Shown piece after piece: positions 25,218 to 26,978 of a stretch of 64,000 nucleotides of DNA; position 1 is the first letter of the stretch; each line of letters begins with the position of its first letter. The position numbers and the translations under genes are program-made. Under the pieces are notes generated by a model. That model saw only the letters and a list, made by a program, of their open reading frames with translations, ran no database searches and was not told the DNA's origin. The DNA comes from a bacterium (GTDB lineage Bacteria; Bdellovibrionota_G; JALEGL01), in contig JALEGL010000006.1 in the NCBI GenBank assembly GCA_022763185.1, positions 175,087 to 239,086 of the forward strand. The letters run 5' to 3'.

Positions 25218-26328
25218 AATGAAGGCACTTTTGTTATTGGAGGATGGTACTGTTCTTCAGGGTAAAGGTTTTGGTGCGCAAGGCATTGCCTGTGGTGAGT
25301 TGGTATTTAATACGTCCATGACCGGTTATCAGGAAATGCTCACCGATCCATCTTACTGCGGCCAAGTGTTAACCTTAACCTATCCCATGATTGGGAGTTA
25401 TGGCACCAATAAGCAAGACTGGGAATCCAAAAATATTTGGGCCAGTGCCCTGGTGGTGGGTAATTATGTTGATTATCCAAGTCACTATGGCAATGAAGCA
25501 AGTCTAGCCAACTATTTAAAAGAAAATAATATTGTTGGTATTGAGGGAGTGGATACCCGGTATATTACTTTGAAAATTAGGGAAAAAGGCGCCATGAAAT
25601 GTGTAGTGGCCTGTGGTGATTATGATATCCAAGATTTAAAAGCAAAGCTTAGCGATATCCCTGATATGCAAGGGGCAGCTTTAGCAGGGGAGGTCAGTTG
25701 TAAGCAGCCCTATACCTGGAATCCAGACAGTCAAAGTGAAGATTGTGTGGTGGTGATTGATTGTGGTGTTAAACATAATATTTTACGTCATCTTGCGGCT
25801 TTGGGTTTTAAAGTGGAAGTGGTGCCTTATAACACCAGCTTTGAACAGATTGTTCAATTGAGTCCAAAGGGAATCATGGTGTCCAATGGCCCTGGAGATC
25901 CAGACGCGGTTGAAGGTTTGCCAGAAGTCTTGCAACGGTGTTTTGGTCGTTTTCCCATATTGGGAATTTGTCTGGGTCATCAGATCTTAGCATTGGCCCT
26001 TGGAGCAAAAACCTACAAACTTGATTTTGGTCACCATGGCGGTAATCACCCGGTGCACAATAAGATCAAAAATAAAATTGAAATCACTGCACAAAACCAT
26101 GGTTTTGCAGTGGATGCTGAGAGTTTAAAAAACGAAGGTGTAAAACAATACAAAGATTTACGGTTAACGCATATTCATTTAACCGATAATACCGTAGAAG
26201 GTTTTGATATTGAGTCGATTGCATTACAGTCCATTCAATATCATCCAGAAGCATCTCCTGGCCCCAATGATGCAGAGTATATTTTTGAGGATTTTAAGCG
26301 ATGTATAAAGAAGTTTTGGGACAAATAG
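25204..26328 (+). CDS. carA: carbamoyl-phosphate synthase small (glutaminase) subunit
   Basis: GICLGHQ catalytic Cys motif and the HG...E triad region. Confidence 0.9.
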   Translation: MENIKMKALLLLEDGTVLQGKGFGAQGIACGELVFNTSMTGYQEMLTDPSYCGQVLTLTYPMIGSYGTNKQDWESKNIWASALVVGNYVDYPSHYGNEASLANYLKENNIVGIEGVDTRYITLKIREKGAMKCVVACGDYDIQDLKAKLSDIPDMQGAALAGEVSCKQPYTWNPDSQSEDCVVVIDCGVKHNILRHLAALGFKVEVVPYNTSFEQIVQLSPKGIMVSNGPGDPDAVEGLPEVLQRCFGRFPILGICLGHQILALALGAKTYKLDFGHHGGNHPVHNKIKNKIEITAQNHGFAVDAESLKNEGVKQYKDLRLTHIHLTDNTVEGFDIESIALQSIQYHPEASPGPNDAEYIFEDFKRCIKKFWDK

Positions 26329-26978
26329 CAGATTTTTTTTCAGAAGAGCGCTATCAGCAAGAGTTTTCTGAAGCCAAAAAAGATTACTTCGATGAAGCCG
26401 GTAAGGCTTTTGAAGATGAACCGGATTATGAACTTAAAATTTCTGGTTTTTTAGAGTGGTATCTTTTGGATCGAATATTGGATAAAGAAAGAGAAACACC
26501 CGCAGAACACTTTGCTAAAACGCATCAGGACGCTGTTGATAAAGAGTTTTTACAAGCGCTGCTGGAAAGTCAGCGCAGTTTATTCAATATAAAAAACATC
26601 AAAAAATATATTTTAGAAGATCTTTTGTATCAACCCAAAACAACCTACACCTTAGATCAATCTTGTATTGAAGAAAAAGCGCTGCTTGGCTTAAATAAAA
26701 ACCAAGTCATTGACGCCCGGATCTTTAAATATCAGGACAAAATTCATATCATGGATACTATCTTTGCGCACAGTGTGGAAGCAAGTGCAGTGATTAAAAA
26801 AGAGCTGAAAAACAATCAGCATTTGGTGAGAAAAAATATATCAACTGTTTTGGACTTTGCTTATATGGCACATAGGCGTCAACAGTTTTCACATGTGGAT
26901 ATCAAAGATGTCTACTCCTTAGAAAAAATTAAACAGCTAAGAGCGCAAGTTATGCAGCAAAAAAAGGATAAAAGTTGA
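26301..26978 (+). CDS. hypothetical protein inserted between carA and carB
   Basis: 225-aa ORF whose start overlaps the carA 3' end by 28 nt. No recognisable motif. Confidence 0.5.
   Translation: MYKEVLGQIADFFSEERYQQEFSEAKKDYFDEAGKAFEDEPDYELKISGFLEWYLLDRILDKERETPAEHFAKTHQDAVDKEFLQALLESQRSLFNIKNIKKYILEDLLYQPKTTYTLDQSCIEEKALLGLNKNQVIDARIFKYQDKIHIMDTIFAHSVEASAVIKKELKNNQHLVRKNISTVLDFAYMAHRRQQFSHVDIKDVYSLEKIKQLRAQVMQQKKDKS

What the first reader, a model, noticed from the sequence alone, without database searches (positions are those of the whole stretch)
26301..26978. Domain-less 225-aa ORF inserted into the pyrB-pyrC-carA-carB operon between carA and carB
carA and carB are almost always adjacent or closely spaced. 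Here a 678-bp ORF with no recognisable motif sits between them. Its start overlaps the last 28 nt of carA, and it ends 50 nt before carB, so it must be co-transcribed with the carbamoyl-phosphate synthetase genes. The protein is highly charged (many E/K/D; KDYFDEAGKAFEDEPDYELK), which argues against a spurious frame in AT-rich DNA because it avoids stops over 225 codons.
Basis: partly seen in the sequence, partly recalled or inferred. Interest (0 to 1): 0.5.

Follow-up and report, generated by a model that had tools for sequence, protein, structure and literature searches.

The report
Conserved unknown-function gene in pyrimidine operon
The ORF between carA and carB is a real, strongly conserved gene of the uncharacterised family DUF7986, which stays attached to the pyrimidine/carbamoyl-phosphate genes across several bacterial phyla; no member has a known function.

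Summary
A 225-codon ORF (26301-26978, +) overlaps the last 28 nt of carA and ends 49 nt before carB. It is a real gene: its codon usage matches its neighbours only in this frame, and dN/dS against an 88-89 % identical relative is 0.032 (carA 0.050, carB 0.023). It is not domain-less in current catalogues, because its homologues carry the Pfam tag PF25948 (DUF7986). The family has at least 467 cluster representatives in Bdellovibrionota, Myxococcota, Nitrospinota and other former deltaproteobacterial lineages, and every member is named "hypothetical". In 80 of 103 species-level loci, carA or pyrC is the nearest recognised gene upstream. The start codon overlaps the carA stop in 36 of 58 loci. 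carB follows in only about one locus in five. A confident AlphaFold model (pLDDT 95.5) shows an acidic N-terminal helical domain, a canonical OB-fold barrel and a basic C-terminal helical region, and the whole fold has no solved relative. My best inference (about 0.4) is a non-catalytic accessory or regulatory partner of the CarA/pyrimidine enzymes. The rivals are an RNA-binding regulator or an unrelated hitch-hiker in a lepA…recG super-operon. It is a moderately interesting lead.

The parts
26301..26978 (+). DUF7986-family gene (225 aa plus stop): the finding
   Evidence: ORF. Frame-specific codon usage. dN/dS 0.032. Homologues tagged PF25948. 467 cluster representatives.
26301..26564 (+). 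N-terminal acidic helical domain (aa 1-88), carrying the most conserved motif, F50-x-x-W53-Y-x-x-D-R58
   Evidence: AF2 model helices 2-13, 16-33, 43-56, 67-74 and 81-88. Conservation. Net charge -12 in the window protein, family median -8.
26565..26756 (+). Central OB-fold-like five-stranded barrel (aa 89-152): beta1 91-99, beta2 104-107, beta3 115-117, helix 125-128, beta4 136-144, beta5 147-150
26757..26975 (+). C-terminal basic helical region (aa 153-225), including the conserved H157-P/S158 and Y/F196-x-H198 positions
   Evidence: AF2 helices 159-171, 180-195 and 207-224. Net charge +7 in the window protein, family median +6. Nitrospinota variants carry an extra coiled-coil segment of about 75 aa here.
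26287..26291 (+). Shine-Dalgarno-like GAGGA, 9 nt before the ATG and inside the 3' end of carA
   Evidence: Read directly from the sequence.
26301..26328 (+). 28-nt overlap between the carA 3' end and the start of the ORF (translational-coupling geometry)
   Evidence: Across the family, 36 of 58 carA junctions overlap and 50 of 58 have a gap of 21 nt or less.
25204..26328 (+). carA (CPSase small subunit), the conserved upstream partner
   Evidence: Pfam CPSase_sm_chain + GATase. carA is the nearest recognised gene upstream of DUF7986 in 58 of 103 loci.
26979..27027 (+). 49-nt spacer with a purine-rich SD (about 27017-27023) for carB; no terminator
27028..30240 (+). carB (CPSase large subunit, complete, with the MGS-like allosteric domain)
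   Evidence: Pfam.
22975..25217 (+). pyrB (probably starting at ATG 23005) and pyrC, the upstream part of the operon
   Evidence: Pfam. The relative's pyrB is 308 aa. The ATG at 23005 gives MAQHLL....

Best explanation
The ORF is a genuine cytosolic protein of the uncharacterised family DUF7986. It is co-transcribed with pyrB-pyrC-carA-carB and translationally coupled to carA. It is not a recent insertion. It is an ancient member of a lepA-lepB-(pyrR)-pyrB-pyrC-carA-DUF7986-(carB)-(greA/recG) gene array shared by Bdellovibrionota, Myxococcota, Nitrospinota and related lineages. Its most likely role is inferred, not shown: a non-catalytic accessory protein, either a regulatory or assembly partner, made in step with CarA (or with dihydroorotase where carA is absent). 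It would bind a pathway enzyme or a pathway metabolite through its OB-fold barrel and the conserved acid/base/aromatic residues nearby (E38, D39, E44, F50, W53, R58, F95, D107, R140, H157, H198, Y205). By doing so it would modulate the supply of carbamoyl phosphate to pyrimidine synthesis. Shown here: the gene is real, it belongs to the family, its operon position and start/stop coupling are deeply conserved, and its domain architecture is as described. Inferred: a physical or functional partnership with the pyrimidine enzymes, and the nature of the ligand.
For: Real gene: in-frame codon score 0.298, against -0.33 or lower in the other frames and 0.30-0.37 for pyrB, pyrC, carA and carB. dN/dS is 0.032. 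Family: 467 representatives at E<=1e-3, mostly full length at about 205-225 aa, and all retrieved homologues are tagged PF25948. Deep synteny: members only 21-27 % identical sit between carA and carB in L004, L006, L007 and L011, directly after pyrC in L003 and L133, and after carA without carB in L009 and L135. Among 103 species-level loci with upstream room, the nearest recognised gene upstream is carA in 58, pyrC in 22 and pyrB in 2. Four further loci keep the pyrB-pyrC-carA block adjacent but inverted. Coupling: the start codon overlaps the carA stop in 36 of 58 loci (mode ATGA), and the gap is 21 nt or less in 50 of 58. That geometry is typical of partners made in fixed proportion. Transposed cassettes (toxin-antitoxin, nucleotidyltransferase) have entered the operon between pyrC and carA in L004 and L011 but left carA-DUF7986-carB intact. 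The whole-protein pI is near neutral (window 6.0, family median 6.7), and many conserved residues are acidic. That fits a protein or ligand binder better than a constitutive nucleic-acid binder. The window operon has no pyrR gene and no Rfam-recognisable leader, so a regulatory role is unfilled.
Against: There is no direct evidence of interaction with any enzyme. In at least three Bdellovibrionales species (L013, L014, L073) the gene follows lepA-lepB with no pyr/car gene within 8 kb, yet the protein stays 80-90 % conserved. So it can function away from the pyr genes, and its position may partly reflect inertia within a larger housekeeping array. CPSase, ATCase and DHOase work without such a partner in all studied bacteria (established knowledge). 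PyrR co-occurs with DUF7986 in L003, L006 and L011, so DUF7986 is not a simple PyrR substitute. The OB fold and the basic C-terminal region (family median +6) are equally compatible with RNA or DNA binding. Downstream partners are heterogeneous.
Confidence: 0.4

Rival explanations
1. Unrelated housekeeping protein that hitch-hikes. On this reading DUF7986 has a function unconnected to pyrimidine synthesis, for example in nucleic-acid transactions near RecG or in translation or secretion near LepA/LepB. It would simply be retained in an old, slowly decaying super-operon running from lepA-lepB to recG or greA.
For: lepA and lepB recur upstream of the pyr block. In L013, L014 and L073 the gene follows lepB directly and no pyr genes are nearby. 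recG lies directly after DUF7986 in L003 and L060, and after carB in the window, L001, L075, L077 and L051. Other unrelated housekeeping genes such as greA are also conserved in carAB operons (PMC4619228). The structural neighbours of the barrel include RuvA, RecO, PriB and SSB.
Confidence: 0.3
2. RNA-binding (or ssDNA-binding) post-transcriptional regulator. The OB barrel and the basic C-terminal helices would bind the pyr/car mRNA or another RNA, controlling translation or stability in the manner of PyrR or cold-shock-domain proteins. The acidic N-terminal domain would act as a sensor or autoinhibitor.
For: The model has canonical OB topology. The best Foldseek neighbours are cold-shock domains bound to RNA (probability 0.9-0.99, E>=0.015), and the best BFVD hits are LEF-3 ssDNA-binding proteins and CSDs. 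The C-terminal region is basic across the family, with median net charge +6. Conserved aromatic and basic residues include F95, R140 and Y205. The window operon lacks pyrR.
Against: No cold-shock, S1 or other nucleic-acid-binding Pfam model matches any of the 96 members tested. The OB domain itself is about neutral (median +1), the whole protein is neutral to acidic, and the most conserved motif lies in the acidic helical domain. No conserved RNA element was detected in the operon. PyrR is present alongside DUF7986 in several loci.
Confidence: 0.2
3. Spurious ORF or non-coding spacer: an accidental open frame in AT-rich DNA between carA and carB.
For: GC content is lower than in the neighbours (35 % against 40-41 %). 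Local Pfam and NCBIfam give no match.
Against: The codon score is frame-specific, and the probability of 225 stop-free codons is about 6e-8. dN/dS is 0.032 with dS above 1. Hundreds of homologues align over their full length. The AF2 model has pLDDT 95.5.
Confidence: 0.01
4. Selfish or mobile cargo, such as a toxin-antitoxin or defence gene, recently inserted between carA and carB.
For: Other loci do carry toxin-antitoxin and nucleotidyltransferase cassettes inside the operon (L004, L011).
Against: Those cassettes sit between pyrC and carA and vary from locus to locus, whereas DUF7986 occupies the same position across phyla. Its codon usage is native. It has no match in the phage-protein families or in BFVD. 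It is a single gene with no partner.
Confidence: 0.02

Closest known systems
Pfam PF25948 (DUF7986), a family of unknown function
   Same: The window protein is 93, 89 and 64 % identical to proteins carrying this tag. Profile searches seeded with it recover only DUF7986-tagged proteins of the same length.
   Different: Nothing distinguishes it from the family; it is an ordinary member from the Oligoflexia/Bdellovibrionota branch. The family has no characterised member and appears in no paper in the searchable library.
Intervening ORFs of the carA-orf-carB-greA operons of Pseudomonas aeruginosa and Xanthomonas citri (PMC4619228)
   Same: They occupy the same position, a small ORF between carA and carB that overlaps or abuts the carA stop. 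The paper reports co-transcription by RT-PCR for X. citri. Their function is also unknown.
   Different: The X. citri ORF is 444 bp (about 147 aa), and the paper states that it and the P. aeruginosa ORF show no similarity to each other. No Pseudomonas or Xanthomonas protein appeared among the named hits here.
PurS, the small non-catalytic subunit encoded beside purQ/purL in FGAM synthetase operons (established knowledge)
   Same: Conceptual analogue only: a small, non-enzymatic protein encoded next to a glutaminase subunit gene and needed to assemble the amidotransferase complex. This is the kind of role proposed here.
   Different: There is no sequence or fold similarity: no Pfam match and no match in the PDB profile search. 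PurS is an alpha/beta sandwich of about 80 aa. CPSase from studied bacteria assembles from CarA and CarB alone.
OB-fold domains (cold-shock domain, CusF/SilF, RuvA domain I, PriB/SSB, RecO N-terminal domain)
   Same: The central 60-70 residues adopt the beta1-beta2-beta3-alpha-beta4-beta5 barrel.
PyrI (ATCase regulatory chain) and PyrR (pyr mRNA-binding attenuator)
   Same: These are the known non-catalytic regulatory proteins encoded within pyrimidine operons.
   Different: No similarity. PyrR is encoded separately in several DUF7986 loci. DUF7986 follows carA or pyrC rather than pyrB.

Membership tests
Pfam PF25948 (DUF7986) | Significant match to the family HMM | tested here: met
   Met indirectly. 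The local Pfam copy lacks this model: 0 of 96 family members hit anything consistent. However, the precomputed PF25948 tag is present on P0001, P0002 and P0003 (93, 89 and 64 % identical; E 1e-131 to 6e-86), unmarked in strength, and on every one of the 39 and 120 listed profile hits.
Pfam PF25948 (DUF7986) | Single-domain protein of about 205-225 aa that aligns end to end with other members | tested here: met
   Most representatives align over query positions about 1-210. Predicted lengths have a mode of 213 aa.
OB-fold superfold | Five-stranded closed barrel with beta1-beta2-beta3-alpha-beta4-beta5 order | tested here: met
OB-fold superfold | Binds oligonucleotide, oligosaccharide, metal or protein on the beta2-beta3 face | not testable with these tools
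The domain's net charge is about neutral.
Cold-shock domain (CSD) | Match to the CSD profile, including the RNP1/RNP2 aromatic motifs | tested here: not met
   No Pfam CSD or S1 hit for the window protein or for any of 96 relatives. The PDB profile search found no CSD. Foldseek E>=0.12 for CSDs.
Carbamoyl-phosphate synthetase subunits (CarA, CarB) | CPSase_sm_chain/GATase or ATP-grasp CPSase_L domains | tested here: not met
   The ORF has no such Pfam match, while the flanking genes have them.
PyrI / PyrR / PurS (known small accessory proteins of nucleotide-biosynthesis operons) | Sequence-profile similarity to the respective families or to their solved structures | tested here: not met
   No Pfam or NCBIfam hits. 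Profile searches against all PDB sequences gave nothing below E=0.1.
carA-orf-carB intervening ORFs of Pseudomonas and Xanthomonas | Homology to those ORFs | not tested
Only positional analogy is known (PMC4619228).

The most novel reading that the evidence does not exclude
DUF7986 is a previously unrecognised third component of the bacterial carbamoyl-phosphate/pyrimidine machinery. It would be either a regulatory subunit of CPSase acting through CarA, or a scaffold that ties CPSase to the ATCase-DHOase complex in a CAD-like metabolon. It would have been conserved since the common ancestor of Bdellovibrionota, Myxococcota and Nitrospinota, and it has a domain architecture with no solved relative.
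Probability: 0.15. Interest if true: 0.75.

Novelty: new member of a known kind. Interest (0 to 1): 0.45.

Why it matters
De novo pyrimidine and arginine synthesis is a textbook pathway whose protein parts list is regarded as complete. Here a strongly constrained protein (dN/dS 0.03) with no solved structural relative is translationally coupled to carA or pyrC in at least five phylum-level lineages. That suggests either an unrecognised accessory or regulatory component of the pathway in a large group of environmental bacteria (predatory Bdellovibrionota, Myxococcota, nitrite-oxidising Nitrospinota), or an unusually persistent case of operon hitch-hiking. The context analysis gives a DUF a concrete, testable functional hypothesis and identifies apparently cultured carriers (Bdellovibrionota FG-1 and FG-2; Bacteriovorax stolpii appeared only as a MAG label here). 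The window protein itself is an ordinary member of an already catalogued family.

Tried and rejected
1. Local Pfam-A, NCBIfam and PHROGs scans of the protein and of 96 relatives gave no meaningful hits. The local Pfam copy evidently lacks PF25948.
2. The first AlphaFold run, with a 4-sequence alignment, gave pLDDT 42 and was unusable. It was replaced by a run with the 96-sequence alignment.
3. The search for related loci on genome contigs failed twice because the alignments were too diverse. I replaced it with a hand-designed degenerate DNA pattern.
5. Profile searches against PDB sequences gave nothing.
6. I looked for domain fusions as a Rosetta-stone clue. The roughly 290-aa variants only carry a coiled-coil segment. 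The long ORFs in high-GC Myxococcota are stop-free upstream extensions, not fusions.
7. An Rfam scan for a PyrR site or other leader in 18000-33500 found nothing. The ORF-carB spacer has no significant structure, and the promoter and terminator scans were at or near background.
8. Literature: no paper mentions DUF7986.
9. Rejected readings: spurious ORF, recent insertion or mobile cargo, PyrR substitute.
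Full report
OBSERVATION. The window contains an ATG-initiated ORF at 26301-26978 on the + strand, encoding 225 aa. Its first 28 nt overlap the end of carA (25204-26328). Pfam confirms the neighbours:
- pyrB at 22975-23931, probably really starting at the ATG at 23005
- pyrC at 23931-25217
- carA, with CPSase_sm_chain and GATase domains
- a complete carB that includes the MGS-like allosteric domain
- recG at 30304-32796

Upstream lie lepA (18843-20648), a pilin-like ORF and two small hypothetical ORFs. A convergent AMP-binding enzyme gene closes the array. 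A GAGGA Shine-Dalgarno sequence sits 9 nt before the ORF's ATG.

IS IT A GENE? Yes.
- A codon-usage log-odds score trained on pyrB, pyrC, carA, carB and recG gives 0.298 bits/codon in the annotated frame and -0.33 to -0.70 in the other five. The neighbours themselves score 0.30-0.37.
- The chance of 225 stop-free codons at this composition is about 6e-8.
- Against the syntenic locus L001/L002 (Oligoflexia MAG GCA_035326705.1, 81-86 % DNA identity) the ORF has dN 0.058, dS 1.8 and dN/dS 0.032. That matches the constraint on carA (0.050), pyrC (0.041) and carB (0.023), and is much tighter than on the small upstream hypothetical (0.22).
- No promoter or terminator stands out between carA and carB. 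The 49-nt spacer has no significant structure, z = -0.06. Rfam finds nothing in 18000-33500.
- Co-transcription is therefore the natural inference, though it was not demonstrated here.

WHAT FAMILY? Local Pfam-A, NCBIfam and PHROGs give no hit. The word-indexed homology search found three close relatives (93, 89 and 64 % identity), all carrying the precomputed tag PF25948, which the context tool names DUF7986. None of the 96 relatives hits any consistent Pfam family locally, so the local Pfam copy simply lacks that model.

An exhaustive HMMER search of 1.84 billion cluster representatives found 467 family members at E<=1e-3 and 123 at E<=1e-10. Nearly all are full length at 205-225 aa. Two further profile searches returned 39 and 470 proteins. 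Every one is tagged PF25948 and every named one is called 'hypothetical protein'. No paper in the library mentions the family, and NCBIfam has no model for any member.

GENOMIC CONTEXT. Gene-called contexts for distant members (21-27 % identity) were as follows:
- carA-DUF7986-carB-greA (L004)
- lepA-lepB-x-pyrR-pyrB-pyrC-carA-DUF7986-carB-greA (L006; L011)
- lepA-lepB(x3)-pyrB-carA-DUF7986-carB (L007)
- pyrR-pyrB-pyrC-DUF7986-recG (L003)
- purC-carA-DUF7986 with no carB (L009)
- lepA-lepB-pyrC-DUF7986-x-heptosyltransferase (L133)
- lepA-lepB-pyrB-pyrC-carA-DUF7986 in the isolate-named Bdellovibrionota bacterium FG-2 (L135)

To scale this up I designed a degenerate DNA pattern for A25-G34-E44-F50-x-[ED]-W-[YF]-x-x-[DE]-R58. 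It matches 41 % of family proteins, with about 2 chance hits expected. I scanned the species-representative genome collection with it.

The labelled taxa are Myxococcota 39, Bdellovibrionota 37, unclassified 'Deltaproteobacteria' 16, Nitrospinota 13, unclassified 10 and a few others.

Of 103 loci with room upstream, the nearest recognised same-strand gene within 1 kb is carA in 58, pyrC in 22 and pyrB in 2. The remaining 21 have something else. Among those 21:
- Three loci (L023, L080, L082) keep the pyrB-pyrC-carA block next door but inverted, as does L064, which was classed as lacking upstream room.
- One (L118) has carA 2.6 kb upstream, separated by an inserted ORF.
- Several have lepB or lepA directly upstream.
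- Three (L013, L014, L073) show no pyr/car gene within the 8-kb locus.

Downstream, carB follows in only about 23 of 105 loci. The rest are heterogeneous: GT9 heptosyltransferase in 16, GH113 in 7, arginine decarboxylase in 3, and others. The window's exact carA-DUF7986-carB order is the rule in Nitrospinota and occurs in some Bdellovibrionota and 'delta' lineages. It was not seen in any of the 33 Myxococcota loci with downstream room.

The junction with carA is tight throughout the family. In 36 of 58 loci the start codon overlaps the carA stop, most often as a 4-nt ATGA overlap (15 loci). In 50 of 58 the gap is 21 nt or less. The window's 28-nt overlap lies within that range. The conserved unit is therefore (lepA-lepB-)pyrB-pyrC-(carA)-DUF7986, and 'inserted between carA and carB' describes only one of its states.

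STRUCTURE. With the 96-sequence alignment, AlphaFold2 gives pLDDT 95.5 and pTM 0.90. The model has three parts:
- five N-terminal helices (aa 2-88)
- a five-stranded barrel with the canonical OB order beta1-beta2-beta3-alpha-beta4-beta5 (aa 91-150)
- three C-terminal helices (aa 159-224)

Near-invariant residues are A25, G34, F50, W53, F95 and R140. Well conserved residues are E21, E38, E44, R58, P67, S93, D107, H157, P158, Y196, H198 and Y205.

The family shows a marked charge polarity:
- N-terminal helical domain: median net charge -8 (window -12)
- barrel: about neutral
- C-terminal helices: median +6 (window +7)

There is no hydrophobic segment, with a maximum Kyte-Doolittle 19-residue average of 0.89, so the protein is cytosolic. 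Nitrospinota members (about 290 aa) carry an additional coiled-coil segment in the C-terminal part.

INTERPRETATION. What is shown: a real, strongly constrained gene; membership of DUF7986; deep conservation of its place at the 3' side of carA or pyrC with translational-coupling geometry; and an acidic-helical / OB / basic-helical architecture.

What is inferred is the function. Gene order and start/stop overlap that survive across phyla at 20-25 % protein identity are the classical signature of proteins that act together, often physically. On that basis my preferred explanation (about 0.4) is a non-catalytic accessory protein, either regulatory or assembly-related, that acts on CarA/CPSase or on the DHOase-ATCase pair. 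It would bind a partner or a pathway metabolite through the OB barrel and the conserved acid/base/aromatic residues. PurS of FGAM synthetase is a conceptual analogue only.

Two observations weigh against this. Three Bdellovibrionales species keep a highly conserved copy next to lepB with no pyr genes nearby. Studied CPSases need no third protein. These fit the main rival (about 0.3), in which the gene is an unrelated housekeeping function retained in an old lepA…recG array.

A third option (about 0.2) is an RNA- or ssDNA-binding regulator. The OB fold and the basic tail suggest it. No nucleic-acid-binding profile supports it, the barrel is neutral, and the most conserved motif lies in the acidic domain. 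A spurious ORF and a recent mobile insertion are excluded.

COMPARISON WITH THE KNOWN. The protein is an ordinary member of the catalogued but uncharacterised family DUF7986. ORFs between carA and carB are known in P. aeruginosa (carA-orf-carB-greA) and X. citri (444-bp ORF). The paper says those two are unrelated to each other (PMC4619228). Their homology to DUF7986 could not be tested here, and no Pseudomonas or Xanthomonas protein appeared among the named hits. The protein is not related by sequence to PyrI, PyrR, PurS, CarA or CarB.

VERDICT. Novelty is 'new member of a known kind'. The added value is the operon association across the whole family, the coupling statistics and a confident structural model, which together turn a DUF into a testable hypothesis. 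Interest is 0.45. The most novel reading not excluded is a third component of the bacterial CPSase/pyrimidine machinery or a CAD-like scaffold, with probability about 0.15 and interest 0.75 if true.

Noticed in passing
window 22623-23000 (+); L001 4311-4700: A 125-aa ORF with an N-terminal hydrophobic segment sits immediately upstream of pyrB and has no Pfam match. It is conserved in the close relative (129 aa, 72 % identity, dN/dS 0.22). Unannotated ORFs of 126-137 aa occupy the same slot between lepB and pyrR/pyrB in L003, L006 and L011. This may be a second uncharacterised member of the operon. Homology between these ORFs was not tested.
   Followed up: partly
window 22975-23005 (+): The mechanically listed pyrB ORF starts at TTG 22975 and overlaps the preceding ORF by 26 nt. 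The ATG at 23005 (MAQHLL...) lies just after that ORF's stop, gives 308 aa like the relative's pyrB, and precedes the start of the OTCace_N match. It is probably the true start.
   Followed up: partly
window 20926-21738 (+) and 21980-22540 (+): A 270-aa protein with a type IV pilin-like N-terminal methylation motif (PF07963) and a 186-aa Cys-rich ORF with a signal-peptide-like N-terminus lie between lepA and the pyr operon. The closest relative (L001) has different genes there, a 129-aa histone-deacetylase-like fragment. This stretch is therefore variable.
   Followed up: no
L004 1397-5849; L011 5073-5788: Toxin-antitoxin and nucleotidyltransferase/HepT cassettes and small ORFs (PhdYeFM antitoxin, NTP_transf_2 + HepT-like, DUF4258) are inserted between pyrC and carA in two groundwater 'Deltaproteobacteria' lineages. 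The carA-DUF7986-carB unit is left intact.
   Followed up: no
L016, L044, L049, L072, L074, L078, L093, L113, L117, L124, L126, L129 (Nitrospinota and Nitrospirota-labelled): These family members are about 289-291 aa. They carry an extra coiled-coil segment of about 75 residues before the last conserved helix, which suggests lineage-specific oligomerisation or an additional partner.
   Followed up: partly
L013, L014, L023, L045, L073, L092, L096, L108, L110, L116, L120, L122, L133 and other Bdellovibrionota loci: In Bdellovibrionota, DUF7986 is often followed, after a gap of about 0.4-0.6 kb, by a GT9 heptosyltransferase gene (16 loci). In L133 the gap holds a 74-aa ORF and further glycosyltransferase genes follow. 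In several Myxococcota loci a GH113 glycoside hydrolase follows instead (7 loci).
   Followed up: partly
L023, L064, L080, L082: In these Bdellovibrionales the pyrB-pyrC-carA block lies on the opposite strand and converges on DUF7986. This is an apparent local inversion that kept the genes adjacent but broke co-transcription.
   Followed up: partly
L001 11871-12134: The close relative has an extra 87-aa ORF with no Pfam match between carB and recG. The window has only a 63-nt gap there.
   Followed up: no
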